Part shown: one piece after another, positions 30,164 through 42,342 of the stretch
Numbering within the stretch: position 1 is the first letter of the stretch
Layout of the letters: each line of letters opens with the position of its first letter
Sequence record: PX880100.1
Length of the DNA stretch: 64,000 bases
DNA from: a phage
Strand: one strand, 5' to 3'
Notes under the pieces: generated by a model
Databases searched by the model: none
Told to the model about the DNA's origin: nothing
What the model saw: only the letters and a program-made list of their open reading frames with translations
Program-made: the position numbers and the translations under genes

Positions 30164-30164
30164 T

Positions 30165-30193: not shown

Positions 30194-30233
30194 ATATTCA
30201 TAAATTTGAGAAAACAACAAAAGGAAAACAAAT

Positions 30234-30416: not shown

Positions 30417-30468
30417 TAGACCAACTTTAAACAAATTCAAATCTTAAACTTCATATAAGGAAGAAACA

Positions 30469-31490: not shown

Positions 31491-31519
31491 TTGCTAATTT
31501 ATTAAGTTATCTGTATAAT
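31491..31519 (+). promoter_or_regulatory. early promoter
   Basis: TTGCTA, 17-bp spacer, TATAAT; approximate. Confidence 0.55.
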
Positions 31520-31549
31520 ATATTTTTAAATTGATGAAACGAGGCTATT

Positions 31550-31867: not shown

Positions 31868-31872
31868 AAAGA

Positions 31873-32322: not shown

Positions 32323-32330
32323 AAATTTAC

Positions 32331-32359
32331 TTGCTTAAATACTTAAATTTCCGTATAAT
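32331..32359 (+). promoter_or_regulatory. early promoter
   Basis: TTGCTT, 17-bp spacer, TATAAT; approximate. Confidence 0.55.
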
Positions 32360-32390
32360 ACTTCCATAAATTAATGAGAGGAAGCGAAAT

Positions 32391-32561
32391 ATGAAATCAG
32401 TTGTAATTATTGGTGTTAACACTCGCGGTATTCGTACTACGAAAACTGTTAAAACTTCCAACGTTGCTGAGATCACTACGAACCCTAAAAAGTTTGATTT
32501 CGCCAAAGTCTCAGCAGTTATGACAGAACAATCTTTTAACCAAGCGTTAGGAATGAAATAA
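32391..32561 (+). CDS. hypothetical small protein (56 aa, below track cutoff)
   Basis: ATG at 32391 with GAGAGGAAG RBS after the promoter; stop overlaps ATG of next gene (TAATG). Confidence 0.5.
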   Translation: MKSVVIIGVNTRGIRTTKTVKTSNVAEITTNPKKFDFAKVSAVMTEQSFNQALGMK

Positions 32562-33004
32562 TGGAAGAGAATATTTTAGATGTTTTGCGTAGAGCTTTGC
32601 AGGATTCTAAGTTTAATGGTTCTGATAAAGAAGTCGCTAAAAGCTATCAGACCATAATCGGGGATCTTCAGCGTATTGATAAAGATTTCATCACTTCTGA
32701 ACAATTTGTGTCTTATCTCAAAGCTCAACTAAAAAGCATTAACCAGATGAAAGCTAAACTTCATGGTCAAGATCTTGATAGTTATAGCTTGCAGTCCGCT
32801 CAGTATGAATACATTCTAAATAAGTGGTTGCAGGAGTATCTGCCTCCTCAGTTATCTGATACTGAGATTCGTAAATACTTTGCAGAATTAGTTAAGCTAA
32901 ACCCTGGAATTACAAAAGGTATGCTGATGAAAGCGATTAAGGAAGAATTTCCTGGGCGTTATGATGGTGGTACTGCTGCTCAGATTGCTGGCGAATTTAA
33001 TTAA
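32561..33004 (+). CDS. hypothetical protein (147 aa)
   Basis: Track ORF; translationally coupled to the upstream small ORF. Confidence 0.5.
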   Translation: MEENILDVLRRALQDSKFNGSDKEVAKSYQTIIGDLQRIDKDFITSEQFVSYLKAQLKSINQMKAKLHGQDLDSYSLQSAQYEYILNKWLQEYLPPQLSDTEIRKYFAELVKLNPGITKGMLMKAIKEEFPGRYDGGTAAQIAGEFN

Positions 33005-33012
33005 AAATTTAT

Positions 33013-33041
33013 TTGCTAAATGCTTATAAATTCTGTATAAT
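33013..33041 (+). promoter_or_regulatory. PN25-type early promoter feeding an ORF-free RNA region
   Basis: TTGCTA, 17-bp spacer, TATAAT, ATATTCATAAATTAGAGAAC; no ORF for the next ~800 bp; approximate. Confidence 0.6.
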
Positions 33042-33264
33042 ATATTCATAAATTAGAGAACAGCGAGCCGATTACGCTGAGTGCAGAATCCCAACCGGAG
33101 CGCATTGAATAGAGTCGGTGGGTTAGTTGTAAAACTAGTACACAGGGGGCGGCAATCCCGGTTAGTGGCTAGAACGTGTAAAATGAGGCGTCTGAAACCT
33201 CTCCCCTAAACTCTTCTCTAATTTATAAATAGTGGGGTGTGGAAATCACTTATGTAGTAACACT

Positions 33265-33336
33265 GCCGTCCTAGTATAATTGGTATTATCAAGCCGTAAC
33301 TGGTGGAAGATGTAGGTTCGAATCCTACGGTCGGTA
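33265..33336 (+). ncRNA. tRNA-like element (T-arm and acceptor stem present, anticodon arm not foldable by eye)
   Basis: GTAGG-TTCGAAT-CCTAC T-arm and GCCGTCC/GGTCGGT acceptor pairing (one mismatch); no convincing anticodon stem; possible pseudo-tRNA. Confidence 0.3.
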
Positions 33337-33838
33337 AGAACTGGATAACTGATGCTTTTAACGTAAAAGCTTCCGAGGTTAGTTGCGCACTGCCTAAACC
33401 ACGCGGTAGTTGGTTCCAGACTAACCAACCAGTCTGCTGAATAGTTTTATTACGATTTAACTATGTCCAGGCTAAAGAAGAACTTTAGAAGGTATTCTAG
33501 GATAGTGAAGTTCTTTCTCCACATCGGAGTAGTTTTTCAAGCTATCCACAAAGTGGGAAATGCTGACATGAGAGATGTCACTAATGGTGCACAATAGCAC
33601 AGGTAATTCGCGATAATTCCTGTTGAGTAGCAGCAAAAGGCGGGAAGTCATGACCCCAAGCCTAACCGAGTCCTCAATATACCGCAGGACATAACCACTA
33701 AGTCACCCTGACTTAAACTGGAAAATAATAGACGTTACTGTATTTTGTCTTGAAATACTTAATGAGTGAGACTTATGACTCTCCCGGTATCGTCTGTATT
33801 TTTAAGAGTTTTTACGAGAGTTCTTAAAAATACTTAAA

Positions 33839-33913
33839 CGGGGTGTAGTCTAAGGGAGAGGCAGGAGTCTTCTAAATTCCTTTATGCAGGTTCGAATCCT
33901 GTCACCTCGGCCA
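33839..33913 (+). tRNA. tRNA-Arg (anticodon UCU)
   Basis: Acceptor CGGGGTG/CACCTCG, D-arm GTCT..AGGC, anticodon arm GGAGT-CTTCTAA-ATTCC, T-arm GCAGG-TTCGAAT-CCTGT, encoded CCA. Confidence 0.7.
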
Positions 33914-33947
33914 ATTTTATTAACTGTAACTAAAACAAAGGAAATAT

Positions 33948-34895
33948 ATGTTTAATACTAAAAATATGAAAGAACTGACTTCTGAGCAGAAAGTAATTCG
34001 TACTATTAAACGTTGGGGGATTGGTGCTGTAGTTGGTTTAGCAGGTTTAGTTCTAGCTCTTAACTCCTATACCGTTGTTCAAGACGGTACTGTTAAGACC
34101 CAGACTTTCTTGGGTAAAGTTGATCCTAATCCAGTATTACCTGGTTTCCATGTTGTAAATCCTTTTGCTTCTTTTGATACTTTTAGTACTAAAGATATTG
34201 CTCTAAAATTAGATAAACTTCAGGTTCCTAGTCAGGATAAGTTTAAATCCACTGTTGACCTGACTGTTATGTTGCAGTTTGATGGTTCTAAAGCACCGAT
34301 TAACCGTATTAATGCAGGTAATCAGGATCAAGCGTTAGACAAATATGTAACTGAAAAATTACTGTCTACTATTCGTGAGTTTGGTAAGTCTGTACCTAAA
34401 GCACAAGATTTATTTGATGCTAAAATTCAGGCTCAATTGCAAACTGCAATTCAACAGGAAGTTGAAGAGTATGCACGCCCATATGGTTACACAGTTAAGC
34501 AGGTGTTCCTTCAGGATATTACTTTGCCACCGGTAATCATGGAACAGGTACAGAATACCAAAGTTCGTGAAGAACAGGTTAATGCTGCTAAAGCTGAATT
34601 AGCTCGTGTTGAACAGGAAGCACAGCAAAAAGTTAAACAAGCAGAAGCAGATCGTGAAGCTCGCAACAACCAAGCTATTGCTAATGAACGTGACGCAGAT
34701 GCTAAACTGTACGCAGCTAAGAAAGAAGCTGAAGCTAACGCCGCATTGCAACGTACCATTACTCCTGAGATGATTCGCTGGAAGCAACTGGAAGTTGAAA
34801 TGATCCGTGCTCAGAAGTATCAAGGTGGTGTACCACAGACGGTAGTTGGTACTGGTTATGATGGCCAAATGATCATGGATATGCGTAATAAATAA
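33948..34895 (+). CDS. SPFH/band-7 (prohibitin/HflC-like) membrane protein
   Basis: 315 aa; N-terminal TM helix (WGIGAVVGLAGLVLALN), central SPFH-like region, C-terminal coiled coil rich in A/E/Q/K/R. Confidence 0.6.
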   Translation: MFNTKNMKELTSEQKVIRTIKRWGIGAVVGLAGLVLALNSYTVVQDGTVKTQTFLGKVDPNPVLPGFHVVNPFASFDTFSTKDIALKLDKLQVPSQDKFKSTVDLTVMLQFDGSKAPINRINAGNQDQALDKYVTEKLLSTIREFGKSVPKAQDLFDAKIQAQLQTAIQQEVEEYARPYGYTVKQVFLQDITLPPVIMEQVQNTKVREEQVNAAKAELARVEQEAQQKVKQAEADREARNNQAIANERDADAKLYAAKKEAEANAALQRTITPEMIRWKQLEVEMIRAQKYQGGVPQTVVGTGYDGQMIMDMRNK

Positions 34896-34919
34896 TACCC
34901 GCATGTAACATCTGAAGTA

Positions 34920-34954
34920 AGCCCTGCGTTTCCTGGAGAGCGCAGGGCTTTTCT
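34920..34954 (+). terminator. rho-independent terminator
   Basis: AGCCCTGCG...CGCAGGGCT hairpin followed by TTTCT; approximate. Confidence 0.6.
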
Positions 34955-34991
34955 ATATAATGTAATTATAAAACTAACTAGGAGATTAAAC

Positions 34992-35510
34992 ATGGGTGTT
35001 GATGAATTAACACAGCATCTTCTATCTAGAGGATTTGATGCAGATAAATATCATTGCTGGTTAAGTCCGGAAGGATGGCTAACAGTCCCGTTGTATGATT
35101 TCTCTGGGATGTTGAGGGGCTATCAAACTTATAATCCTTCTGCTCCAAAAGGTCATGGTAAGTATCCCTTTGAAGCTAAATATTTTACCTATTCTACTAC
35201 CCAGTGTGTATGGGGATTAGAAACTCTCAATGGAGATGAAAAAGTAGTATTGATCGCTGAATCTGTATTTAAGGCAGTTGCGTTACATAACGCTGGTTAT
35301 CCAGCCCTAGCAATGTTGGGTTCTTCTCCAGGAAAAGCGTTATTAAAGCAACTGAAATTATTACCTTTTAAATTGGTAGCTGTCGGGGATAACGATCCTG
35401 CGGGTGAAAAATTTGCTAGAAAATTAAACGGCTTTGTTTCTCCTGTAGATGTGGATGAGATGTCTACCGAAAACTTGAAAAATTTTCTTGCTATGAAGCT
35501 AAATTTCTAA
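34992..35510 (+). CDS. hypothetical protein (172 aa)
   Basis: Track ORF with GGAGA RBS. Confidence 0.5.
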   Translation: MGVDELTQHLLSRGFDADKYHCWLSPEGWLTVPLYDFSGMLRGYQTYNPSAPKGHGKYPFEAKYFTYSTTQCVWGLETLNGDEKVVLIAESVFKAVALHNAGYPALAMLGSSPGKALLKQLKLLPFKLVAVGDNDPAGEKFARKLNGFVSPVDVDEMSTENLKNFLAMKLNF

Positions 35511-35531
35511 TATAATATATCTTATAAATTC

Positions 35532-35620
35532 GGAAGAATAGCATAACGGTATTGCAGCAGATTGCTAATCTGTCGGTTTGAAATATAGCCTTGTGGGTTC
35601 GATTCCCACTTCTTCCGCCA
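35532..35620 (+). tRNA. tRNA-Ser (anticodon GCU), class II
   Basis: Acceptor GGAAGAA/TTCTTCC, 3-bp D-stem, anticodon arm GCAGA-TTGCTAA-TCTGT, long variable arm, T-arm GTGGG-TTCGATT-CCCAC, encoded CCA. Confidence 0.7.
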
Positions 35621-35626
35621 AATTCT

Positions 35627-35704
35627 GGTTCTCAAGCTCATATGGTATGAGCACCCAGCTCATAACTGGAAGGTACGTAGGTTCGAATCCTCGGGGAGCC
35701 ACCA
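35627..35704 (+). tRNA. tRNA with CAU anticodon (Met or Ile2 type)
   Basis: Acceptor GGTTCTC/GGGAGCC with G-U pairs, D-arm GCTC..GAGC, anticodon loop CTCATAA, encoded CCA; T-stem has two mismatches, so fold is uncertain. Confidence 0.5.
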
Positions 35705-35922
35705 ACTTAATTAGGGGATTACAAGTGGAATTATACATAGTTTATGTTGTGTTTATTCAAGATAGAGAATACCCTGATGAATATAAAAAAGGATATAGGT
35801 TAGCCAGAGCTACCTCTGAAGTCCAAGCTATGGATAAAGTGGCAGATTATATGATTACGGTAGAAAACGTACACTATATCGACTACCTTGAGGCCTCAAA
35901 AGTAATTGACTAAGGAGACTAT

Positions 35923-36108
35923 ATGTCCAAGTTTCAAGAACTCAAGCAAGAGCTAGAAGAATGTGCCTGCCCTGAGTGTAGGGGAATTGGTGAAAGTTCT
36001 GATGCAGAAGCAGGAGATACTTTTTGCAATATCTGGGTTTGCCCAAATTGCAATGGTACAGGTATTAATCCTAACTGTGGTATTTCTCTAGATATTGAAA
36101 GAGGGTAA
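35923..36108 (+). CDS. small zinc-ribbon-like protein (61 aa)
   Basis: Track ORF; CxxC...CxxC cysteine pairs (CACPECRG, CPNCNG); AAGGAG RBS. Confidence 0.5.
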   Translation: MSKFQELKQELEECACPECRGIGESSDAEAGDTFCNIWVCPNCNGTGINPNCGISLDIERG

Positions 36109-36209
36109 TATCTGTGAAACTAAAAGATTATTATATTGGTTGGTTTGTGGGACTAGTAGTAGGATTTTCACTAGGCTATAATATGTATCAACTAATAAAC
36201 TGATTACAC

Positions 36210-36286
36210 GGGGGTGTAATCGAATTGGCATAGGTACTGGACTTAAAATTCAGGTTTTGTGGGTTCGAATCCCACCACCCCTACCA
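36210..36286 (+). tRNA. tRNA with UAA anticodon (Leu-type anticodon, short variable arm)
   Basis: Acceptor GGGGGTG/CACCCCT, anticodon arm CTGGA-CTTAAAA-TTCAG, T-arm GTGGG-TTCGAAT-CCCAC, encoded CCA; D-arm not cleanly resolved. Confidence 0.5.
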
Positions 36287-36301
36287 AATTAAGGAAATAA
36301 G

Positions 36302-36469
36302 ATGTATAGACCTCCACCTCCGCCAACACGTCGTTCTAGAGAAGTTATCCTCATGGAATTGACTAAAAACTTCAAGGCAACTCTTGAAGATAGAGATTTA
36401 GGCACGGATGAAGACATTGATTTTATTTGTAGACTATTAAAGATGAAACTGGAGAAACAACATGGCTAA
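36302..36469 (+). CDS. hypothetical small protein (55 aa, below track cutoff)
   Basis: ATG at 36302 with AAGGAAATAAG RBS right after the tRNA; proline-rich N-terminus; overlaps the next ORF start. Confidence 0.5.
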   Translation: MYRPPPPPTRRSREVILMELTKNFKATLEDRDLGTDEDIDFICRLLKMKLEKQHG

Positions 36470-36668
36470 TCCTGAAATTACCGCACAACGTTTCATGCTT
36501 AAAGGCATGATTGCTGAAGCAGGTATGACTCAAGAGGTTGCAGACTTTCATAAGCAAATTCTTGATATTATAACTCTAGCTAAAGAGACTGGAGAAAAAG
36601 AGCACGCAGCAGCAATTATGGCTATATCTCTTATTAGTCTAGACTTGGCTGAAGAATCTGGAGTTTAG
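36462..36668 (+). CDS. hypothetical protein (68 aa)
   Basis: Track ORF. Confidence 0.5.
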   Translation: MANPEITAQRFMLKGMIAEAGMTQEVADFHKQILDIITLAKETGEKEHAAAIMAISLISLDLAEESGV

Positions 36669-36698
36669 CTCCTCCAAATAGAATTTTTAAAAATGTAC

Positions 36699-36728
36699 TT
36701 GCCTTTTGCTTTAAATTTCTGATATAAT
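36699..36728 (+). promoter_or_regulatory. early promoter
   Basis: TTGCCT, 18-bp spacer, TATAAT, then AGTTATATAAATTGATGAAGGAG; approximate. Confidence 0.55.
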
Positions 36729-36758
36729 AGTTATATAAATTGATGAAGGAGTTAACTA

Positions 36759-37034
36759 ATGCAAAATCGTGTTATAGCAACTGGTATTGAAAGTGCAATC
36801 TGTAAATCCTGGGAAGGCTGGGAAGGTGAGATTGAATGGCTTTATTTCTATGATGTAGAACTTCTGCCGGAAGTTAAAGCTAAATGTGTTGAAGCTGGAA
36901 TGGCTCCAGATGCAAAAGCTGATATTGATATTTCAATGTCTGAACTTAAAGGCCGTGTAATTACTGTTAGTGATGAGGGTGAAGAAGTTTTCGAACTTCC
37001 ATTCTCCTTAACTGTCACTCCTAAGTTCGACTAA
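36759..37034 (+). CDS. hypothetical protein (91 aa)
   Basis: Track ORF downstream of promoter. Confidence 0.5.
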   Translation: MQNRVIATGIESAICKSWEGWEGEIEWLYFYDVELLPEVKAKCVEAGMAPDAKADIDISMSELKGRVITVSDEGEEVFELPFSLTVTPKFD

Positions 37035-37070
37035 CTAATACAGCACTGAGCAAGTTCTTTAAAATTTGAC

Positions 37071-37099
37071 TTGCTCAGTGCCTTAAAACTTGGTATAAT
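37071..37099 (+). promoter_or_regulatory. early promoter feeding a tRNA block
   Basis: TTGCTC, 17-bp spacer, TATAAT; followed by a 14-bp inverted-repeat leader hairpin and tRNAs; approximate. Confidence 0.5.
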
Positions 37100-37161
37100 A
37101 GTTATCTAATTTGGAAACATATTTAAAAGTGTTTAAACTAGTATTTGAATACTTTTAAATA

Positions 37162-37267
37162 TGTTGGATTAGTATCGTAGAGGTAGCGAAGCAGACTGTA
37201 AATCTGCCGACTCGGAAGGGTCTCGGGTGGTTCGACTCCATCATCCATCATCCATCATCCAACACCA
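37162..37267 (+). tRNA. tRNA-Tyr-like (anticodon GUA), class II, atypically long; boundaries uncertain
   Basis: Perfect anticodon arm GCAGA-CTGTAAA-TCTGC, D-stem TCG/CGA, T-arm GGTGG-TTCGACT-CCATC; 3' region carries ATCCATC-ATCCATC-ATCCAAC then ACCA; GTTGGAT pairs with the last copy. Confidence 0.5.
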
Positions 37268-37274
37268 AATTTAA

Positions 37275-37351
37275 GTCCTGTTAGACAAACTGGTAAAGTC
37301 ACTACCCTTTCAAGGTAGGATTTGCGGGTTCGATCCCCGCACAGGACGCCA
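37275..37351 (+). tRNA. tRNA-Glu (anticodon UUC)
   Basis: Acceptor GTCCTGT/ACAGGAC, anticodon arm CTACC-CTTTCAA-GGTAG, T-arm GCGGG-TTCGATC-CCCGC, encoded CCA. Confidence 0.8.
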
Positions 37352-37360
37352 ATTTCTGCA

Positions 37361-37436
37361 TTCCTAGAGTGTTACTGGACAGCATGTCGGTCTCCAAAAT
37401 CGTACGGTCTAGGTTCGAGTCCTAGTAGGTTTGCCA
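37361..37436 (+). tRNA. tRNA-Trp-like (anticodon CCA), acceptor pairing unresolved
   Basis: Anticodon arm TCGGT-CTCCAAA-ATCGT and T-arm CTAGG-TTCGAGT-CCTAG with encoded CCA; spacing to neighbouring tRNAs fits, but 5' acceptor strand could not be paired by eye. Confidence 0.4.
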
Positions 37437-37442
37437 AAATTT

Positions 37443-37517
37443 GCACCTTTAGCTGAGATGGATTAGCGCTTGCCTGAAGAGCTTGAGAGGTTCGTTCGAT
37501 ACGAACAGGGTGCACCA
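37443..37517 (+). tRNA. tRNA-Phe-like (anticodon GAA)
   Basis: Acceptor GCACCTT/AGGGTGC, D-arm GCTG..TAGC, T-arm GTTCG-TTCGATA-CGAAC, encoded CCA; anticodon loop CTGAAGA but stem has two U-U mismatches. Confidence 0.55.
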
Positions 37518-37519
37518 AA

Positions 37520-37807
37520 TTGAGGGGGCTGCTGATGCATCCTGAAAACTTCTTTATTTACTGCGCTGATAAGTCGCTGAAACGTAGAATTAACAAAGTC
37601 TATCATTATCGTGCTAGTCAACAGCCTTATGTATATGCTTTTGACGGTGATCACATTCCATTAGAACAATTATCTTGTGATTACATGATATTGAAGAACT
37701 TTGACGAGACAAAGATCTCAAGCGTTCATAATCGACAGAATCCCTTAACGTGGAAATATAAGAAGAAAAAGAAAGGCATCAAATTCTTAAAAAATGTAGT
37801 TGCTTAG
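37520..37807 (+). CDS. hypothetical protein (95 aa)
   Basis: Track ORF starting 3 nt after the tRNA; TTG start. Confidence 0.45.
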   Translation: MRGLLMHPENFFIYCADKSLKRRINKVYHYRASQQPYVYAFDGDHIPLEQLSCDYMILKNFDETKISSVHNRQNPLTWKYKKKKKGIKFLKNVVA

Positions 37808-37828
37808 TTTCCAAAAGTTCTGTATAAT
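37800..37828 (+). promoter_or_regulatory. PN25-type early promoter
   Basis: TTGCTT, 17-bp spacer, TATAAT, then AATTACATAAATTGAACTGGAG; approximate. Confidence 0.55.
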
Positions 37829-37857
37829 AATTACATAAATTGAACTGGAGAAGCAAC

Positions 37858-38082
37858 ATGACAGAACAAGAATTGAATGAACGTAAGCTGGTAATGCTCC
37901 GCTTACTAAACATTTTCTCTGGTATGGATGGGGGTATTGACTTTGTTCATCTACGTTCTTTTGTAGAAGAAGCAGAAGGTGAATCTATCACTAAAATCCT
38001 TAAACATATGGGTTTACTATTAGATGCTGCTGGTGTAGCAACGGAATATAACCTCGAAGATCTACCGGAGCGTATTAAATGA
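37858..38082 (+). CDS. hypothetical protein (75 aa)
   Basis: ATG at 37858 with GGAG RBS; track lists an extended frame from 37840. Confidence 0.5.
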   Translation: MTEQELNERKLVMLRLLNIFSGMDGGIDFVHLRSFVEEAEGESITKILKHMGLLLDAAGVATEYNLEDLPERIK

Positions 38083-38267
38083 AGAAGCCAAAAGCTAAAT
38101 TAGTTAAGTTCGACTGTTGTGACACAGAAATCTTATTCACTAAGTTTGGTGAATTTAAGATGTGTGAATGTGGAACATGTGGTTATGATCATGGTGATGG
38201 ATATTATTGCAGGACTCTTGGACCAGCAAATCTAATCCACTTTTCATGGCCGGAAGATAAAGAATAA
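38079..38267 (+). CDS. small zinc-ribbon-like protein (62 aa)
   Basis: Track ORF; cysteine clusters FDCCDTE and CECGTCGYDHGDGYYC; 4-nt overlap with upstream gene. Confidence 0.5.
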   Translation: MKKPKAKLVKFDCCDTEILFTKFGEFKMCECGTCGYDHGDGYYCRTLGPANLIHFSWPEDKE

Positions 38268-38269
38268 TT

Positions 38270-38344
38270 GCATCCTTGTCCGAGTGGCTTAGGTGACGGT
38301 CTGCAAAATCGTCTAGGTTGGTTCAATTCCAGCAGGGTGCTCCA
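38270..38344 (+). tRNA. tRNA-Cys (anticodon GCA)
   Basis: Acceptor GCATCCT/AGGGTGC, anticodon arm ACGGT-CTGCAAA-ATCGT, T-arm GTTGG-TTCAATT-CCAGC, encoded CCA. Confidence 0.7.
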
Positions 38345-38350
38345 AATTCA

Positions 38351-38433
38351 GGGTCGTTAGCCAAGCGGTTTGGCGGTGGACTGTTAATCCATGTCGAAAG
38401 ACAACGTAGGTTCGAATCCTACACGGCCCGCCA
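38351..38433 (+). tRNA. tRNA-Asn (anticodon GUU) with an enlarged (~13-nt) variable region
   Basis: Acceptor GGGTCGT/ACGGCCC, D-arm GCCA..TGGC, anticodon arm GTGGA-CTGTTAA-TCCAT, T-arm GTAGG-TTCGAAT-CCTAC, encoded CCA. Confidence 0.65.
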
Positions 38434-38535
38434 AATTCTGTGTAGAGTTAAGTAAACCGGTAGCCAACCAGCTATCATTGCTGACATCGAATTCAGCCAC
38501 AGATACCATTTTCATTAATAACTGAGGAAACAAGC

Positions 38536-38721
38536 ATGTCCAAGAATGTAATTGCGCAGCTAGAAGTTCATCGTGATAGCACTATCAACAATATTGAAGT
38601 TGAGAAGAAATACATCGAAGAACTTAAACATGATATACTAGTAAGTCTCAACCGTCTTAATGTACGAAAAGAGTTTCTTAAAGAACTTAATGCAGCTATT
38701 GAAAAACTCAAAGCTGAGTAA
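38536..38721 (+). CDS. hypothetical protein (61 aa)
   Basis: Track ORF with GAGGAAAC RBS. Confidence 0.5.
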   Translation: MSKNVIAQLEVHRDSTINNIEVEKKYIEELKHDILVSLNRLNVRKEFLKELNAAIEKLKAE

Positions 38722-38730
38722 ATGAATTAT

Positions 38731-38807
38731 GCGACCGGGGCTGGCTTGGTAATGGTACTCCCCTGTCACGGGAGGGAATGTGGGTTCAAATCCCATCGGT
38801 CGCGCCA
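38731..38807 (+). tRNA. tRNA-Asp (anticodon GUC)
   Basis: Acceptor GCGACCG/CGGTCGC, anticodon arm CTCCC-CTGTCAC-GGGAG, T-arm GTGGG-TTCAAAT-CCCAT, encoded CCA. Confidence 0.8.
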
Positions 38808-38824
38808 AATAAGGTAGGTTAGCT

Positions 38825-38983
38825 ATGGAACGTAGAGAGTTTACTCCAGAAGAGATAGAGCAGATAAAAGAATCTGCTACGAAAAATGCTAGAATATCTC
38901 TGTCACTAGAAGGTATCATTATTAGTGATGTAAACTTTGAAAAAATCAAAGCCATAGCTGATGAACTGGAAAAAGTAATTTAA
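38825..38983 (+). CDS. hypothetical small protein (52 aa, below track cutoff)
   Basis: ATG at 38825 with AAGGTAGG RBS between two tRNAs; acidic helical peptide. Confidence 0.45.
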   Translation: MERREFTPEEIEQIKESATKNARISLSLEGIIISDVNFEKIKAIADELEKVI

Positions 38984-38984
38984 T

Positions 38985-39060
38985 ACATCCATAGCTCAAT
39001 GGTTAGAGCTACCGCCTCTTAAGCGGAGGGTTCTAGGTTCAAGTCCTAGTGGGTGTACCA
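38985..39060 (+). tRNA. tRNA-Lys (anticodon CUU)
   Basis: Acceptor ACATCCA/TGGGTGT, D-arm GCTC..GAGC, anticodon arm CCGC-CTCTTAA-GCGG, T-arm CTAGG-TTCAAGT-CCTAG, encoded CCA. Confidence 0.65.
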
Positions 39061-39086
39061 AACTAAACTAGCACGAGAAATATACT

Positions 39087-39434
39087 ATGCGTAATGCTAA
39101 AGAAGAGTTGTTACTTGCCTTAAAAAATACTAATTCTGAAGTTAAGTGTATTAAAATAGAATTCGGGTATTATGGGGACAAAAAAGTTTGGGTATTACCT
39201 CTGGGGTATACAGAAGAAGATATTGGGGATTTTCTTAATAACCTAGACTTTGAGTATGATTCTGGTTATGGTGGACAACTACTTTATGGTAATGTATGGT
39301 TTGCCGATGGAACCTGGCTAGAACGTGGGGAATATGATGGAGCTGAGTGGTGGGAATACAAGGCTACTCCAGCAATTCCAGAGGAATGCCGAACAATTAA
39401 TGGTGAAGTAGATAATACTTTAAGGTTAAACTAA
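39087..39434 (+). CDS. hypothetical protein (115 aa)
   Basis: Track ORF. Confidence 0.5.
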   Translation: MRNAKEELLLALKNTNSEVKCIKIEFGYYGDKKVWVLPLGYTEEDIGDFLNNLDFEYDSGYGGQLLYGNVWFADGTWLERGEYDGAEWWEYKATPAIPEECRTINGEVDNTLRLN

Positions 39435-39438
39435 TAAA

Positions 39439-39538
39439 ATTTCAGTGCAGAACACGGAGCTAGCAATTCGGAAGTGCTGACTCATGATAAGCTGCCTATG
39501 TACTTGCAAAGCGGTCGTGTCCAAGACTCGGACTCTTG
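39439..39538 (+). ncRNA. structured ORF-free element closed by a ~10-bp long-range stem
   Basis: TTCAGTGCAG at the 5' end pairs with CTTGCACTGAA at the 3' end, enclosing internal hairpins (GTCC-AAGACTC-GGAC); no ORF. Confidence 0.35.
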
Positions 39539-39556
39539 CACTGAAAACAATCAAAC

Positions 39557-39684
39557 ATTCTAGCGTGGTTGATGGGGAAACCAGCTTGGCTAGGGCAGAA
39601 GCTCGTTCGATTCGAGTGAAAGAATGGTTCTCGTAAGTCCGCACAAGTGATAATAGGTTCGAGTCCTGTCTAGAATGACACTAT
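39557..39684 (+). ncRNA. tRNA-like element of atypical length (~128 nt)
   Basis: ATTCTAG...CTAGAAT acceptor-like pairing, D-arm-like GGTT-GATGGGGA-AACC, two T-arm-like motifs; too long for a canonical tRNA. Confidence 0.3.
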
Positions 39685-39826
39685 AAAGTTTACTTATTAT
39701 GTAGGTTCCGATAGATCGGCGGGTCTATTCTGGCATTTAAGAGAGGTCTCGCAAACTTCTTTGTCAGCCGTGGGGTTGGTAGCCTCCAGGTGGCCTACAC
39801 AATAAGTAAATTTATTAAAAATTCAT

Positions 39827-39855
39827 TTGCTATTTCTCTTAATTATCTGTATAAT
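39827..39855 (+). promoter_or_regulatory. PN25-type early promoter
   Basis: TTGCTA, 17-bp spacer, TATAAT, then ATATTTTATAAAGTGAAGAGAAGG; approximate. Confidence 0.55.
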
Positions 39856-39887
39856 ATATTTTATAAAGTGAAGAGAAGGAAAGCAAA

Positions 39888-40046
39888 ATGAAACACAAGA
39901 TAGCTCAAGTTTTTATGGCATTATGGTGTATGCCAATAGCTATAACAGCATTTAATCTAGATACTTTTACTATAGAAGAAAAATGTATCGGATTAGTTAG
40001 TGGCTTTAGTATGCTTGGCTTATCTTTGTTGTGGTTGAAGAAATAA
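39888..40046 (+). CDS. hypothetical small membrane peptide (52 aa, below track cutoff)
   Basis: ATG at 39888 with GAAGGAAAG RBS after the promoter; hydrophobic sequence; stops 4 nt before tRNA-Pro. Confidence 0.5.
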   Translation: MKHKIAQVFMALWCMPIAITAFNLDTFTIEEKCIGLVSGFSMLGLSLLWLKK

Positions 40047-40050
40047 TATT

Positions 40051-40128
40051 CTCCGTGTAGCTCAGTTTGGCCAGAGCGTTTCGTTTGGGGCGATAGGGTC
40101 GGGGGTTCAAATCCTCCCACGGAGACCA
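40051..40128 (+). tRNA. tRNA-Pro (anticodon UGG)
   Basis: Acceptor CTCCGTG/CACGGAG, D-arm GCTC..GAGC, anticodon loop TTTGGGG (stem with one U-U), T-arm GGGGG-TTCAAAT-CCTCC, encoded CCA. Confidence 0.7.
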
Positions 40129-40134
40129 AACAAT

Positions 40135-40212
40135 TGCGGGTTAGATCTCTGGTAGAGATCGCTAGTCTCATAAGCTAGAAAGAGGTAGGTTCGATTCCTG
40201 CACCCGCTTCCA
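40135..40212 (+). tRNA. tRNA with CAU anticodon (Met-type; T-T mismatch at pair 1-72)
   Basis: Acceptor TGCGGGT/ACCCGCT, D-arm GATC..GATC, anticodon arm CTAGT-CTCATAA-GCTAG, T-arm GTAGG-TTCGATT-CCTGC, encoded CCA. Confidence 0.6.
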
Positions 40213-40232
40213 TTTTAATAGAGGATTTCGAA

Positions 40233-40400
40233 ATGAAAGTATTTCGATTAGTAGTAAGTGACAAACGCTTAGGTAAGAATACATCAAAATCCTTACTTGC
40301 TCATTATGGTAGAAATTGGGATGAAGTAATGGCAGAGTTTAGTACTAATCACTCTTACTTGAAAGTTCACTCTATTAAAGAAGTATACAATGGTTACTAA
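40233..40400 (+). CDS. hypothetical small protein (55 aa, below track cutoff)
   Basis: ATG at 40233 with GAGGA RBS between tRNAs. Confidence 0.45.
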   Translation: MKVFRLVVSDKRLGKNTSKSLLAHYGRNWDEVMAEFSTNHSYLKVHSIKEVYNGY

Positions 40401-40401
40401 T

Positions 40402-40480
40402 AGATCGCTAGCTCAATAGGTTTAGTAGCATCCGACTTTTAATCGGAAGGTTCTGGGTTCAAGTCCCAGGCGATCTACCA
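40402..40480 (+). tRNA. tRNA-Lys (anticodon UUU)
   Basis: Acceptor AGATCGC/GCGATCT, anticodon arm TCCGA-CTTTTAA-TCGGA, T-arm CTGGG-TTCAAGT-CCCAG, encoded CCA. Confidence 0.8.
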
Positions 40481-40484
40481 ATTT

Positions 40485-40558
40485 GCTCGGTTAGTTTAAT
40501 GGGAGAACCCCGTCTTTACATGGCGGTTGAGATAGTTCGATTCTATCACCGGGTACCA
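40485..40558 (+). tRNA. tRNA-Val (anticodon UAC)
   Basis: Acceptor GCTCGGT/ACCGGGT, anticodon arm CCGTC-TTTACAT-GGCGG, T-arm GATAG-TTCGATT-CTATC, encoded CCA. Confidence 0.8.
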
Positions 40559-40577
40559 ATTAACTCAAAATAAGGAA

Positions 40578-40937
40578 TTGCAAATGCAATTATCAAGCAA
40601 GATTCAAGGTTATTTCGGTCATGTGACAATGGAGTTCGCTATCTCTAAAGGTTGGGACTTCGAACAAGATTTAGCTGAGTTCTACAAAGATATTGATCTG
40701 AACGTACCGTACATGGGACTTTCTACTGGTCAGGAGATCACAGAAGCCGATGTATTCAAGGCAAGTCAAGGTGAGGTAACACCTAGTTTTGCCGAGTTCT
40801 GGTTAGGCATTACGTTAAAAGAAGATGCACCAGATAGTGGTGTACTAATGTCTAGTATGCACTCTGGAAGTTCCGATTACCTTTTCATTAGCGATGTTAA
40901 GGAAATACAAGAAGTCTGCAAAAATGTACTTGCTTGA
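40578..40937 (+). CDS. hypothetical protein (119 aa)
   Basis: Track ORF (TTG start; in-frame ATG at 40584) with AAGGAATTG RBS. Confidence 0.5.
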   Translation: MQMQLSSKIQGYFGHVTMEFAISKGWDFEQDLAEFYKDIDLNVPYMGLSTGQEITEADVFKASQGEVTPSFAEFWLGITLKEDAPDSGVLMSSMHSGSSDYLFISDVKEIQEVCKNVLA

Positions 40938-40957
40938 TGCTTAATTTCTTGTTATAA
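40929..40957 (+). promoter_or_regulatory. PN25-type early promoter feeding an ORF-free leader and tRNAs
   Basis: TTGCTT, 17-bp spacer, TATAAT, then ATTTATATAAATTGATGAGGAG; approximate. Confidence 0.55.
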
Positions 40958-41195
40958 TATTTATATAAATTGATGAGGAGAAATCCTCATCATAGTTCAC
41001 TAAGGTATTAGCTCGACCTAGGACTGGCTGCCAAAAAGCACGATCCCTACGATTCGGGAGAAGTTCTAGATTGGTCCACTAGATTCAGCGGCAACTGAAT
41101 AGTGTATTGGGTTTGCGAGATGACGTAGTTCCTTCCGCTCTAAGCGAAGGTGCTGTAGTTACGCCGAGCTAATAGCCTTAGTAAACTAAAGAATT

Positions 41196-41274
41196 TGGGG
41201 AATGGGTCTGCATGGAGTGGACACCTCGCTTGCACCGAGGACATCAGAACGGTTCGATTCCGTTATTCTCCACC
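41196..41274 (+). tRNA. tRNA-Ala (anticodon UGC)
   Basis: Acceptor GGGGAAT/ATTCTCC, D-arm GTCT..GGAC, anticodon arm CCTCG-CTTGCAC-CGAGG, T-arm AACGG-TTCGATT-CCGTT, encoded CCA. Confidence 0.8.
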
Positions 41275-41279
41275 AAATA

Positions 41280-41356
41280 CGCGTGATTGATGGAATTGGC
41301 ATACATACCGTCCTTAGAAGTCGGGTTTTGAGGGTTCGAATCCCTTGTCACGCACC
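41280..41356 (+). tRNA. tRNA with UAG anticodon (Leu-type anticodon, short variable arm)
   Basis: Acceptor GCGTGAT/GTCACGC, anticodon arm CCGTC-CTTAGAA-GTCGG (one mismatch), T-arm GAGGG-TTCGAAT-CCCTT, encoded CCA. Confidence 0.5.
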
Positions 41357-41468
41357 AAATTTGATGGTCAGAGTAAATTAAACCTACTATCTCGGTTGAG
41401 CTGTTTTAATGGGTTCGAATCCCAGCGAGGCGTAACTGCCTGGTGTGATAGAGGCATCATCTTATTAT

Positions 41469-41559
41469 TGGAAGAGCAAATCGAATTGGCGACGAAAACC
41501 GCTTGGAAAGTGGCTGACTGGTAAAACGGCTTGAGAGTTCAAATCTCTCCTCTTCCGCC
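41469..41559 (+). tRNA. tRNA-Ser (anticodon GGA), class II
   Basis: Acceptor GGAAGAG/CTCTTCC, anticodon arm ACCGC-TTGGAAA-GTGGC, long variable arm, T-arm GAGAG-TTCAAAT-CTCTC, encoded CCA. Confidence 0.7.
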
Positions 41560-41571
41560 AAACAATTTATA

Positions 41572-41666
41572 TGGTAGGTCAATCCAATGGCTGGCGTGGG
41601 ACTCCGACTTGAAATCGGTTGATCGTAGTGATACGGTGTAAGGGTTCGATCCCCTTACCTACCTCC
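41572..41666 (+). tRNA. tRNA-Ser (anticodon UGA), class II
   Basis: Acceptor GGTAGGT/ACCTACC, anticodon arm TCCGA-CTTGAAA-TCGGT, long variable arm, T-arm AAGGG-TTCGATC-CCCTT, encoded CCA. Confidence 0.7.
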
Positions 41667-42032
41667 AAATCTTGAAGTATGCCGGAATCGGTAGACGGGG
41701 CTGCCTAAAAGGTTTATAGGGAACATCCACTCCCTGCAACATACCCCATAAAGCGGCTGAGATAAATGGTCTATCTCGTGAAGGTTCAAGTCCTTCTGCT
41801 TCTTGATACATCAATGGCTCAAAGTGTAACGGCGCTATTTGATGCGCTTAGTAAGACTTCCCCGACATGCGTTCGGGAGTAAGCTGCTAAGGCTAGAGTA
41901 GAAGAGTTTCTGAGAGCCGCCACAATTGAAGATTCGTACTCGTCTTGAGCTGCGTGCAATAGGAGATAACTTGATTAGTATTCTAGAACATGCTAATTGA
42001 GGAAGGTTTCGCTAACCCTGCGAGTTTTCAAT

Positions 42033-42109
42033 TGTGGCTATATCATAATTGGTTAATGATCCTGATTGTGAATCAGGCCTATGTGGATTCGAATTCCACT
42101 AGCCACCCC
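42033..42109 (+). tRNA. tRNA-His (anticodon GUG)
   Basis: Acceptor GTGGCTA/TAGCCAC, D-arm TCAT..ATGA, anticodon arm CCTGA-TTGTGAA-TCAGG, T-arm GTGGA-TTCGAAT-TCCAC, encoded CCA. Confidence 0.85.
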
Positions 42110-42135
42110 AAATTAACTTAAATAGGAAATAAAAT

Positions 42136-42330
42136 ATGGCTGATTTCTGCAAACAATGCTCCATTGATATGTGGGGCAGAGATACTGGTGATCTTTCTGG
42201 TTTGATTACAGAAGCTGAAGTTAAAGAAGGCTACGGTGCTGTTGTGATTTGCGAGGGATGCGGAGTTATTCGAGTAGATCATGAAGGCAAACGTTTGGAA
42301 GAATCTGAGCCAACAACAATTTTTCCGTAG
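42136..42330 (+). CDS. small zinc-ribbon-like protein (64 aa)
   Basis: Track ORF; CKQCS...CEGCG cysteine pairs; AGGAAATAAA RBS. Confidence 0.5.
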   Translation: MADFCKQCSIDMWGRDTGDLSGLITEAEVKEGYGAVVICEGCGVIRVDHEGKRLEESEPTTIFP

Positions 42331-42342
42331 AATAAAAATTAT

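What the first reader, a model, noticed from the sequence alone, without database searches (positions are those of the whole stretch)
40958..42032. ORF-free structured segments interspersed in the tRNA block, including a T-arm-only element and a minihelix-like element
Three stretches in the tRNA cluster have no ORF and no complete tRNA: the ~240-nt leader 40958..41195 with several hairpins (for example CCTTCCGCTCTAAGCGAAGG), the segment 41357..41468 with a T-arm motif (TGGG-TTCGAAT-CCCA) but no pairable acceptor stem, and 41667..42032, where AAGCGG pairs with CTGCTT around a single hairpin and a T-arm (GAAGG-TTCAAGT-CCTTC) to make a ~53-nt tRNA minihelix-like unit near 41750..41802. These could be processing signals, tRNA fragments or decoys, or small RNAs.
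Basis: seen in the sequence. Interest (0 to 1): 0.5.

Follow-up and report, generated by a model that had tools for sequence, protein, structure and literature searches.

The report
Phage T5 stable tRNA-like RNAs
The ORF-free stretches in this T5-like phage's tRNA block are homologues of the small stable RNAs (RNA2H, RNA1, RNAI, RNAIII) already annotated in phages T5 and BF23, whose function is still unknown, plus one conserved, structured 112-nt spacer that no record I examined annotates as an RNA.

Summary
The window is a Tequintavirus (99% identical to phage IME178). Segment 1 holds the T5 promoter P13b, a leader hairpin and RNA2H (41006-41177). Segment 3 is RNA1 (41671-41815), RNAI (41816-41922) and RNAIII (41927-42032). 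All four are annotated in the T5 and BF23 GenBank records as "stable RNA with unknown functions". Each folds with a closed terminal helix, and compensatory substitutions across Tequinta-, Epseptima- and Sugarlandvirus support the folds of RNA2H, RNA1 and RNAI; RNAIII varies too little to test. RNA1 is not a 53-nt minihelix. It is a full tRNA-Leu-type cloverleaf (41673-41803) whose anticodon loop is replaced by a 48-nt irregular hairpin, and it has no encoded CCA. Segment 2 (41358-41469) carries no RNA annotation in any record whose annotation I examined, including BF23. It is 97-100% conserved in about 200 phages, covaries with Klebsiella-phage homologues, and forms a four-way junction containing the T-loop hairpin. 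T5 has the HNH endonuclease gene hegC at that position instead. T5 mutants with deletions spanning the four annotated RNAs are viable, so these RNAs are accessory. Verdict: a real observation, mostly already known. Function remains unknown; tRNA mimicry is the leading guess.

The parts
40909..40984 (+). Homologue of T5 early promoter P13b (-35 TTGCTT 40930-40935, 17-nt spacer, -10 TATAAT 40953-40958); presumed start of the transcription unit
   Evidence: 90.8% identity to the annotated T5 P13b feature. AKFV33 and BF23 annotate a promoter at the same place. The generic sigma-70 scan misses it because the T5 -35 box is TTGCTT.
40971..40992 (+). 9-bp leader hairpin TGATGAGGA-GAAA-TCCTCATCA just downstream of the promoter
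   Evidence: MFE -13.8 kcal/mol, z = -3.8. The surrounding 48 nt are 92-100% conserved in relatives.
41006..41177 (+).
   Evidence: 96.5% identity to T5 misc_RNA rna2H 'stable RNA with unknown functions'; also annotated in BF23. Consensus fold of 48 pairs, 99.8% paired, 9 pairs with compensatory change.
41358..41469 (+). Unannotated Leu-Ser spacer element ('segment 2'). P1 GATGGT 41363-41368 / ATCATC 41456-41461; P2 41383-41391 / 41447-41454; small hairpin 41393-41403; T-loop hairpin TGGG-TTCGAAT-CCCA 41410-41424; hairpin P4 41426-41443. Together a four-way junction.
   Evidence: 97-100% identical in 22 fetched loci and >=95% in 194 of 252 phage records. Sugarlandvirus homologues are 73-82% identical and carry compensatory changes in P2, the T-loop hairpin and P4: 100% of cells paired, 6 pairs changed on both sides. 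RNAalifold finds the same fold. No RNA feature lies under any listed match, including the curated BF23 record. Absent from the fetched T5 tRNA region (record positions 24000-42000), where hegC occupies the site.
41671..41815 (+). RNA1 homologue (145 nt). The tRNA-Leu-like cloverleaf core is 41673-41803: acceptor 41674-41679/41797-41802; D arm CCG-GAATCGGTAGA-CGG; anticodon stem GCTGC/GCGGC closing a 48-nt irregular hairpin with loop ACATCCAC (ACATCCGC in T5); 6-bp variable-arm hairpin; T arm 41780-41796; discriminator T 41803; no CCA.
   Evidence: 84.8% identity to T5 rna1 'tRNA-like stable RNA'. 26 distinct sequences give 98.3% of cells paired and 11 covarying pairs. ARAGORN -i draws the same cloverleaf. 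The best non-self hits of covariance model R1 are phage tRNA-Leu and tRNA-Ser.
41816..41922 (+). RNAI homologue (107 nt): 5' GGCTC paired with GAGCC, followed by G-CCA at the 3' end; central covarying hairpin; 3' hairpin next to the terminal stem (acceptor/minihelix-like end)
   Evidence: 91.6% identity to T5 rnaI. Divergent homologues occur in Epseptima-type and Klebsiella phages. 96.8% paired, 7 covarying pairs, terminal stem U-A <-> C-G.
41927..42032 (+). RNAIII homologue (106 nt): 12-bp terminal stem, 12-bp internal hairpin; its 3' end abuts tRNA-His
   Evidence: 98.1% identity to T5 rnaIII. MFE -30 kcal/mol, z = -2.5. Too little variation (97-99% identity) to test covariation.
41197..41357 (+). 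Context: tRNA-Ala(UGC) 41197-41275 and tRNA-Leu(UAG) 41281-41357, between RNA2H and segment 2
   Evidence: ARAGORN and Rfam.
41470..41667 (+). Context: tRNA-Ser(GGA) 41470-41560 (missed at default thresholds) and tRNA-Ser(UGA) 41573-41667
   Evidence: ARAGORN -ps80, a weak Rfam tRNA-Sec hit, the T5 tRNAS2(GGA) annotation.
42033..42110 (+). Context: tRNA-His(GUG), 100% identical to that of T5; marks the 3' boundary of RNAIII

Best explanation
These stretches are genes for small structured non-coding RNAs of the T5 phage family. They are RNA2H, RNA1 (tRNA-like), RNAI and RNAIII, plus a fifth, unannotated element between tRNA-Leu and tRNA-Ser(GGA).

Inferred mechanism: the RNAs are transcribed together with the neighbouring tRNAs from the early promoter P13b as one polycistronic precursor. 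The host tRNA-maturation machinery then cuts them out. RNase P would cleave at the 5' ends of the tRNAs and of the acceptor-like ends of RNA1 and RNAI. RNase E would cut in the A-rich CCA-AAU spacers, and 3' exonucleases would trim. The products persist because their 5' and 3' ends are locked in a terminal helix.

What each RNA looks like: RNA1 descends from a type-II tRNA-Leu whose anticodon loop was replaced by a long hairpin, so it keeps the tRNA elbow but cannot decode. RNAI keeps only an acceptor-like helix with an encoded RCCA end. Segment 2 keeps a T-loop hairpin inside a four-way junction.

These RNAs are accessory, not essential. The most likely role (a guess, about 0.3) is tRNA mimicry: binding or titrating a host or phage factor that recognises tRNA shape, such as a processing or modification enzyme, a synthetase, or a tRNA-targeting defence nuclease.
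For: Shown:
- Sequence homology and conserved gene order with the annotated T5 and BF23 misc_RNAs ('stable RNA with unknown functions', 'tRNA-like').
- The same order, P13b - RNA2H - Ala - Leu - seg2 - Ser - Ser - RNA1 - RNAI - RNAIII - His, in about 35 loci.
- No convincing + strand terminator inside the unit; the only two + strand matches lie on the RNA1 T arm and a hairpin inside RNAIII.
- Every element has a closed terminal helix.
- Structure is kept by compensatory changes across three genera.
- RNA1 has a D loop, T loop, U8 and long variable arm of the tRNA-Leu type, and the best non-self hits of its covariance model are tRNA-Leu and tRNA-Ser.
- RNAI ends in GCCA or ACCA in all clades.
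- T5 mutants T5-123 (deletion 29191-32442, spanning rnaIII, rnaI, rna1 and rna2H by NC_005859 coordinates) and T5Mos (deletion 30661-38625) are viable (PMC11464382; coordinates).
- Individual elements are missing in some natural relatives.

Inferred: co-transcription, the processing enzymes involved, stability in this phage, and any function in trans.
Against: There are no expression or stability data for this phage or for segment 2. The BF23 curators, who annotated the other RNAs, left segment 2 blank. Folding energies of single sequences are close to those of shuffled controls. The plasmid fragments from the T5-123 deletion other than the tRNA-Pro/fMet/Lys/Val fragment did not rescue T5-123 infection on PARIS+ cells (PMC11464382). 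Those fragments should span the four RNAs, but I did not check their boundaries. Nothing in the sequence identifies a binding partner. Covariation shows selection on structure, which a purely cis-acting processing role would also explain.
Confidence: 0.8

Rival explanations
1. Passive spacers or processing insulators. The structures exist only in cis, to keep neighbouring tRNAs from misfolding in the long precursor and to position RNase P and RNase E cuts. The excised pieces are by-products that happen to be stable and have no function of their own.
For: The elements sit exactly between tRNAs and end at tRNA boundaries. They can be deleted and are variably present. Selection on structure is equally expected for cis elements.
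Against: Loop and single-stranded sequences are nearly or fully invariant while the adjacent stems covary. Examples are the RNA1 loop ACATCCAC (25 of 26 sequences; T5 has ACATCCGC) and the fully invariant GTAACGG of RNAI. Most tRNA pairs in the same cluster are separated by only 5-12 nt and need no insulator. In Klebsiella phages RNA1 sits at a different place in the cluster yet keeps its structure.
Confidence: 0.3
2. Decaying tRNA pseudogenes: leftover fragments of tRNA genes drifting neutrally.
For: RNA1 and segment 2 contain tRNA-derived motifs (T loop, D loop). T5-type RNA1 still carries CUUAAAA, a perfect tRNA-Leu(UAA) anticodon-loop sequence, next to the 3' strand of the anticodon stem. 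The region is a mosaic shaped by homing endonucleases.
Against: Compensatory substitutions keep 97-100% of cells paired in all helices across three genera. Segment 2 is 97-100% identical in the fetched loci, while neighbouring RNA1 ranges from 83 to 99%. Neutral decay would break the stems.
Confidence: 0.04
3. RNA1 is a functional intron-containing tRNA (Leu or Phe) that is spliced to a normal tRNA.
For: ARAGORN -i calls it tRNA-Phe(aaa) with a 41-nt intron here. The JLBYU40 record annotates the homologue as tRNA-Leu(taa), 134 nt.
Against: The 'anticodon' differs between close homologues (aaa, taa, others) and U33 is not conserved. The Rfam scan gave no hit of any family, group I intron included, on RNA1. 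Bacteria are not known to have a tRNA splicing endonuclease (established knowledge). There is no encoded CCA, the discriminator is U rather than the A73 of tRNA-Leu, and the first acceptor pair is U.U. T5 and BF23 annotate the full 144-nt species as the stable RNA. The 'intron' itself is a covarying hairpin with a nearly invariant loop.
Confidence: 0.03
4. Segment 2 matters mainly at the DNA level. It would be the endonuclease-free allele or homing site for the HNH endonuclease hegC, kept uniform by gene conversion rather than by an RNA function.
For: In T5, hegC occupies the Leu-Ser(GGA) interval in place of segment 2, and the T5 tRNA-Ala and tRNA-Leu queries gave no BLAST hit in the window. 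Near-identity across otherwise 85-95% identical phages fits recent sweeps.
Against: Klebsiella-phage homologues differ at many positions, yet every helix stays paired through compensatory or wobble changes. All single substitutions seen in helices within Tequintavirus are wobble-compatible. Both observations point to selection on an RNA fold. The two explanations are not mutually exclusive.
Confidence: 0.1
5. The stretches encode small proteins, as some GenBank records annotate ('hypothetical protein').
For: Mechanical ORFs of 20-59 aa overlap the stretches. Several phage records place hypothetical proteins there.
Against: No ORF is longer than 59 aa, and the longest run into or across the neighbouring tRNA genes. 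None matches a PHROG family. Substitutions follow base-pairing, not codon, logic. The expert-curated T5 and BF23 records annotate RNAs at these positions.
Confidence: 0.02

Closest known systems
Bacteriophage T5 / BF23 stable RNAs RNA2H, RNA1, RNAI, RNAIII (misc_RNA features T5s04, T5s03, T5s02, T5s01 of NC_005859; FIU71_gs05-gs08 of NC_042564)
   Same: Direct homologues (96.5, 84.8, 91.6 and 98.1% identity) in the same order between promoter P13b and tRNA-His, with the same lengths.
   Different: Nothing essential differs for segments 1 and 3. Segment 2 has no counterpart feature: it is absent from the fetched T5 tRNA region, where hegC occupies the site, and it is present but unannotated in BF23.
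Bacteriophage T4 species 1 and species 2 RNAs (rnaC, rnaD)
   Same: Small stable RNAs of unknown function, encoded inside a phage tRNA cluster next to a homing endonuclease gene. rnaC carries a canonical T arm (CCGGG-TTCGAAT-CCCGG) adjacent to its 3' terminal strand.
   Different: No sequence homology beyond the T-loop consensus (13-nt match; covariance model R2 scores 12 bits). Different phage family and a different overall fold.
Canonical type-II tRNA-Leu (Rfam RF00005)
   Same: RNA1 has a 7-pair acceptor stem (first pair U.U), U8, a 3-bp D stem with loop GAAUCGGUAGA, a 5-bp anticodon stem, a long variable-arm hairpin, and a 5-bp T stem with loop UUCAAGU.
   Different: The 7-nt anticodon loop is replaced by 48 nt. 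There is no conserved anticodon, no CCA, and the discriminator is U. RNA1 has no RF00005 hit even at E <= 10.
tRNA-like domains of other non-coding RNAs (tmRNA; bacterial YrlA/Y RNA)
   Same: They reuse the tRNA acceptor/T-arm or elbow as a module within a larger non-decoding RNA. RNAI has an acceptor-like helix plus RCCA, as tmRNA does.
   Different: No Rfam hit to tmRNA or Y RNA families, and ARAGORN finds no tmRNA at default settings. There is no tag reading frame. In YrlA the acceptor-like stem is capped and the ends lie in the Ro-binding helix (recalled from the literature, not tested), the opposite topology to RNA1.

Membership tests
T5-family stable RNAs (RNA2H, RNA1, RNAI, RNAIII) | Sequence homology to the annotated T5/BF23 misc_RNA genes | tested here: met
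   Full-length blastn matches at 96.5%, 84.8%, 91.6% and 98.1% identity. Features listed.
T5-family stable RNAs (RNA2H, RNA1, RNAI, RNAIII) | Conserved position: P13b - RNA2H - tRNA-Ala ... tRNA-Ser - RNA1 - RNAI - RNAIII - tRNA-His | tested here: met
   Same order in the window, T5, BF23 and about 30 further loci.
T5-family stable RNAs (RNA2H, RNA1, RNAI, RNAIII) | Accumulates as a discrete stable RNA in infected cells | not testable with these tools
   Rests on the depositors' annotation 'stable RNA' for T5 and BF23. There are no data for this phage or for segment 2.
Canonical tRNA (RF00005 / ARAGORN default) | Cloverleaf with a 7-nt anticodon loop, scoring above the Rfam gathering score or ARAGORN's default threshold | tested here: not met
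   No hit in any of the three stretches, and none even at E <= 10. RNA1 has every arm, but 48 nt stand in place of the anticodon loop.
Intron-containing tRNA | A conserved anticodon and loop flanking the intron, and a recognisable splicing system (group I core or bulge-helix-bulge) | tested here: not met
   The anticodon is called aaa here and taa in JLBYU40, and U33 is not conserved. No Rfam family, group I intron included, hits RNA1. T5 annotates the unspliced 144-nt species.
   The AAGCG/TGCTT helix has 72% of cells paired, with 11-15 of 26 sequences unpaired at two positions. The cloverleaf acceptor stem has 97% paired and 4 covarying pairs.
tmRNA | tRNA-like domain plus a tag reading frame, detected by ARAGORN or Rfam | tested here: not met
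   No tmRNA. Only a 13-bit sub-threshold match to permuted tmRNA over tRNA genes. The very relaxed ARAGORN calls are artefacts built on the true tRNAs.
T4 rnaC/rnaD family | Sequence or structure homology to T4 species 1 and 2 RNAs | tested here: not met
   Only the 13-nt T-loop consensus is shared with rnaC. Covariance model R2 scores 12 bits on T4. The resemblance is functional and positional only.
Conserved structured RNA (segment 2 as a new element) | The fold is kept by compensatory substitutions in independent lineages | tested here: met
   8 distinct sequences from two genera: 17 pairs, 100% paired, 6 pairs changed on both sides, slid controls 31-49%. RNAalifold recovers the same helices. 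Caveat: there are effectively only two deep lineages.

The most novel reading that the evidence does not exclude
Segment 2 (41358-41469) is a previously unrecognised fifth small RNA of the T5-family tRNA operon. It is a four-way-junction RNA built around a T-loop hairpin, and it alternates with the homing endonuclease gene hegC at the same locus. Its core module (T-loop hairpin plus the adjacent hairpin) also turns up in the tRNA cluster of a T4-like Erwinia phage. More broadly, RNA1, RNAI and segment 2 could be tRNA-shaped decoys or sponges that protect the phage's translation apparatus from host tRNA-targeting defences. That would fit the emerging picture of T5 tRNAs as counter-defence tools against PARIS, retron Eco7 and retron Eco2.
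Probability: 0.2. Interest if true: 0.65.

Novelty: already known. Interest (0 to 1): 0.33.

Why it matters
The T5 stable RNAs are annotated in the T5 and BF23 GenBank records, but still as 'unknown functions'. The literature searches here found no paper that assigns them a function. Phage tRNA clusters are now known to counter tRNA-cleaving immune systems: T5 tRNA-Lys against PARIS (PMC11464382) and T5 tRNA-Tyr against retron Eco7 (cited in PMC10644984). Non-decoding, tRNA-shaped RNAs in the same operons are therefore obvious but untested candidates for decoys or regulators. This analysis adds covariation-backed secondary structures for RNA1, RNAI and RNA2H, shows that RNA1 is a tRNA-Leu derivative with its anticodon loop replaced, and flags one conserved element (segment 2) that no annotation I examined marks as an RNA. 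It also has practical value for annotation: public T5-like genomes variously label these RNAs as hypothetical proteins, tRNA-Leu or tRNA-Gly.

Tried and rejected
1. Rfam at gathering and at permissive thresholds: nothing beyond true tRNAs.
2. ARAGORN at default, in intron mode, and at relaxed thresholds: only RNA1 is drawn as a cloverleaf. The relaxed minus-strand and tmRNA calls are artefacts.
4. A pseudoknot between the RNA1 loop (CCGCU in T5) and AGCGG: rejected by eye, because all sequences other than T5 have CCACU in the loop.
5. A partner for the RNA1 loop ACAUCCAC: no GTGGATGT anywhere on the window's + strand, and only scattered 6-mers.
6. Covariance models R1 (RNA1) and R2 (segment 2) run against 35 distant metagenomic loci that encode the neighbouring 64-aa protein: no homologues.
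7. Homology of any element to T4 rnaC or rnaD: only the T-loop consensus is shared.
8. Coding potential of the overlapping ORFs: no PHROG hits.
9. Open-access literature on the T5 stable RNAs themselves: none found. Only the GenBank annotations and the deletion-mutant data were usable.
10. MAFFT misaligned the 5' part of segment 2 and the 3' end of the Klebsiella RNA1 sequences. This was fixed by trimming to the structural cores.
Full report
**Origin of the window.** The region 40560-42340 is 99.3% identical to Escherichia phage IME178 and 98.6% identical to AKFV33. It matches 534 phage records, nearly all Salmonella, Escherichia or Klebsiella T5-like phages (family Demerecviridae). The window carries at least 24 tRNA genes, all on the + strand.

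**Observation check.** ARAGORN at default settings and Rfam at gathering score find tRNA-Ala (41197-41275), tRNA-Leu(UAG) (41281-41357), tRNA-Ser(UGA) (41573-41667) and tRNA-His (42034-42110). A permissive Rfam scan (E up to 10) adds only chance-level hits. The mechanical ORFs there are at most 59 aa and match no PHROG family. One tRNA that default tools miss, tRNA-Ser(GGA), lies at 41470-41560 (annotated in T5).

**Identity of segments 1 and 3.** The T5 RefSeq record annotates, in the syntenic positions:
- rna2H (172 nt, between promoter P13b and tRNA-Ala);
- rna1 ('tRNA-like stable RNA', 144 nt);
- rnaI (107 nt);
- rnaIII (106 nt, abutting tRNA-His).

All are labelled 'unknown functions'. 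The BF23 tRNA-region record annotates the same features. BLAST of the T5 features onto the window gives:
- P13b at 40909-40984 (90.8%);
- rna2H at 41006-41177 (96.5%);
- rna1 at 41671-41815 (84.8%);
- rnaI at 41816-41922 (91.6%);
- rnaIII at 41927-42032 (98.1%);
- tRNA-His at 42033-42110 (100%).

So the 'leader' consists of the promoter, a 9-bp leader hairpin (40971-40992, z = -3.8) and RNA2H. The 366-nt stretch is three abutting RNAs.

**RNA1.** I collected 26 distinct sequences from Tequintavirus, Epseptimavirus-type and Klebsiella Sugarlandvirus phages. They support a complete cloverleaf at 41673-41803:
- Acceptor stem: GAAGTA/TGCTTC here, GGAATA/TGTTCC in T5, ATGCCG/CGGGGT in Klebsiella phages.
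- U8, a 3-bp D stem, and the D loop GAAUCGGUAGA. This is the E. coli tRNA-Leu D loop with one change (U to C); the T5-type sequence GAAUUGGUAGA is identical to it (comparison recalled from memory).
- A 5-bp anticodon stem, GCTGC/GCGGC.
- In place of the 7-nt anticodon loop, a 48-nt irregular hairpin. Its stems covary while its loop ACATCCAC is nearly invariant (T5 has ACATCCGC).
- A 6-bp variable-arm hairpin, and the T arm GAAGG-TTCAAGT-CCTTC.

Counts for this structure: 34 pairs, 98.3% of cells paired, 11 pairs changed on both sides. Slid controls give 41-52% paired.

ARAGORN in intron mode independently draws the same cloverleaf. It calls the RNA 'tRNA-Phe(aaa) with a 41-nt intron' here, while the JLBYU40 record calls the homologue 'tRNA-Leu(taa)'. 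The supposed anticodon is therefore not conserved. There is no encoded CCA, the discriminator is U, and the first acceptor pair is U.U.

T5-type sequences still carry CUUAAAA next to the 3' strand of the anticodon stem. This is consistent with descent from a tRNA-Leu(UAA). A covariance model of RNA1 scores phage tRNA-Leu(UAG) (38.5 bits), tRNA-Ser(GCT) (35.8 bits) and the window's own tRNA-Leu(UAA) (34.2 bits) as its best non-self hits. RNA1 occurs in 493 phage records.

**RNAI.** All clades share three features: a 5' GGCYC paired with GRGCC and followed by R-CCA; an invariant single-stranded GTAACGG; and a 3' hairpin next to the terminal stem. The central hairpin is rebuilt with different sequence in Epseptima-type and Klebsiella phages (CCCGA/TCGGG versus TCTGG/CCAGA, CCTGG/CCAGG, CTTGG/CCAAG). 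On the RNAalifold structure, 96.8% of cells are paired and 7 pairs changed on both sides. That structure was derived from the same alignment, so the counts lean towards it. RNAI, not RNA1, is the element that most resembles an acceptor minihelix with a CCA end.

**RNA2H and RNAIII.** RNA2H has a 10-bp terminal stem and seven helices in all. 99.8% of cells are paired and 9 pairs are compensatory. Most of these come from Epseptima-type phages, in which two sub-hairpins are replaced by different sequences that still pair. RNAIII has a 12-bp terminal stem and z = -2.5, but it is 97-99% conserved and too uniform to test. Klebsiella phages have an element of about 150 nt with a long terminal stem in the same position, without detectable sequence similarity.

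**Segment 2 (41358-41469).** This is the part that goes beyond the public annotation.
- It directly follows the CCA of tRNA-Leu in every locus where it occurs and where ARAGORN called the tRNA-Leu.
- It is 97-100% identical in 22 fetched loci, and at least 95% identical in 194 of 252 phage records.
- No RNA feature lies under any listed match, including the expert-curated BF23 record.
- The fetched T5 tRNA region (record positions 24000-42000) lacks it. There the HNH endonuclease gene hegC fills the Leu-Ser(GGA) interval.

Sugarlandvirus phages carry homologues that are 73-82% identical. On an alignment of the core (41383-41461), the pairing is kept as follows:
- The 8-bp stem CCTaCTATC/GATAGAGG becomes CCTaCGGCT/AGTCGAGG.
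- The T-loop hairpin TGGG/CCCA becomes CAGG/CCTG.
- The next hairpin, AGGC/GCCT, becomes GGGC/GCCC.

In total there are 17 pairs, 100% of cells paired, and 6 pairs changed on both sides. Slid controls give 31-49%. RNAalifold recovers the same helices plus a small 3-4-bp hairpin, which makes a four-way junction. An outer stem GATGGT/ATCATC closes the whole element. All single substitutions seen in helices within Tequintavirus are wobble-compatible. Caveat: there are effectively only two deep lineages.

A partial match to the core (T-loop hairpin plus the adjacent hairpin; 31.5 bits) lies just upstream of a tRNA-Met in the tRNA cluster of the T4-like Erwinia phage IT22.

**Mechanism.**
- Shown: homology, synteny, conserved folds, closed terminal helices, tRNA-derived modules, the encoded RCCA on RNAI, and no convincing + strand terminator within the unit.
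- From the literature: T5 mutants T5-123 (deletion 29191-32442) and T5Mos (deletion 30661-38625) are viable. By NC_005859 coordinates the first removes rnaIII, rnaI, rna1 and rna2H. Only the fragment carrying tRNA-Pro, fMet, Lys and Val partially rescued T5-123 infection of PARIS+ cells (PMC11464382).
- From the loci: natural relatives lack individual elements. The RNAs are therefore accessory.
- Inferred: co-transcription from P13b; excision by RNase P, RNase E and 3' exonucleases; persistence through the terminal helices; and a function as tRNA mimics.

The main rival is a purely cis role in precursor folding and processing. The nearly or fully invariant loops next to covarying stems, and the relocation of RNA1 within the cluster in Klebsiella phages, argue mildly against that rival.

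**Comparison and novelty.** Segments 1 and 3 are members of the annotated T5/BF23 stable-RNA set, and so already known. The closest analogue elsewhere is T4 rnaC/rnaD, which also sit in a tRNA cluster beside a homing endonuclease gene and also have no known function. No homology to them was found. None of the elements is in Rfam. Segment 2 is best described as a probable new member of the same kind, pending evidence that it is expressed. The open question of function has become more topical now that T5 tRNAs are known to counter tRNA-targeting defences (PMC11464382; PMC10644984; PMC12916289).

Noticed in passing
window 41470-41560: tRNA-Ser(GGA), 91 nt with a long variable arm, is missed by ARAGORN at default settings and by Rfam at gathering score. 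It appears only at ARAGORN -ps80 and as a 19.7-bit tRNA-Sec hit. T5 annotates the homologue as tRNAS2(GGA), which cannot be converted into a suppressor.
   Followed up: partly
window 41281-41357: tRNA-Leu(UAG) is only 77 nt and lacks the long variable arm expected of bacterial tRNA-Leu. T5 and several relatives (L012, L015, L016) carry an 85-nt allele at the same position, also followed by segment 2 in the relatives. The T5 tRNA-Ala and tRNA-Leu queries gave no BLAST hit in the window, which suggests allele replacement around the hegC site.
   Followed up: partly
window 33209-33838, 38436-38508, 39556-39680, 39699-39801: Homologues of four further T5 'stable RNAs' outside the finding: RNAX (91-99%), RNA3 (100%), RNA2 (95%, tRNA-like) and RNAIV (98%). 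The Rfam tRNA hit at 33265-33336, which ARAGORN does not call, lies inside RNAX.
   Followed up: no
L003 (T5) 7023-7607 versus window 41358-41469; table: The tRNA block is a mosaic. HNH endonuclease genes and small ORFs (66-194 aa) are inserted between different tRNAs in different phages. hegC in T5 occupies the place of segment 2. RNA1, RNAI or RNAIII are each missing in some relatives (for example L020 lacks RNA1; L007, L021 and L024 lack RNAIII).
   Followed up: partly
L076 (Erwinia phage IT22, Straboviridae) 586-642: A T4-like phage carries, just upstream of a tRNA-Met gene, a 57-nt module (TTTAATGGGTTCGAGTCCCAGCGAGGGGTAACCCTGG...) that matches the T-loop hairpin plus adjacent hairpin of segment 2 (31.5 bits). 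The 380-nt interval between two tRNA-Met genes is unannotated.
   Followed up: partly
L069 (Klebsiella phage K7_rec14) 3256-3506 and 4807-4937: In Sugarlandvirus, an RNAI homologue (GGCCC...GGGCCACCA) and an element of about 150 nt with a long terminal stem lie between tRNA-Ser and tRNA-His. RNA1 sits about 1.3 kb further downstream, after tRNA-Val. More GC-rich hairpins follow it (4938-5170).
   Followed up: no
window 42136-42330: The 64-aa ORF next to tRNA-His (T5.062 homologue, with CxxC...CxxC motifs) has relatives at 43-68% identity in over 30 metagenomic viral contigs. Most of these were searched for RNA1 and segment 2 and have neither.
   Followed up: partly
public records listed: T5-like genome records annotate RNA1 inconsistently: 'hypothetical protein' in several, 'tRNA-Leu(taa)' of 134 nt in JLBYU40, 'tRNA-Gly' in SUT_E1620. 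Hypothetical proteins are also placed elsewhere in the RNA1-RNAIII region and over segment 2.
   Followed up: partly
window 42032-42034: T5 annotates tRNA-His as 78 nt starting one base upstream of the ARAGORN call. That base is U (42033), not the G-1 typical of bacterial tRNA-His, and it directly follows the last base of RNAIII.
   Followed up: no
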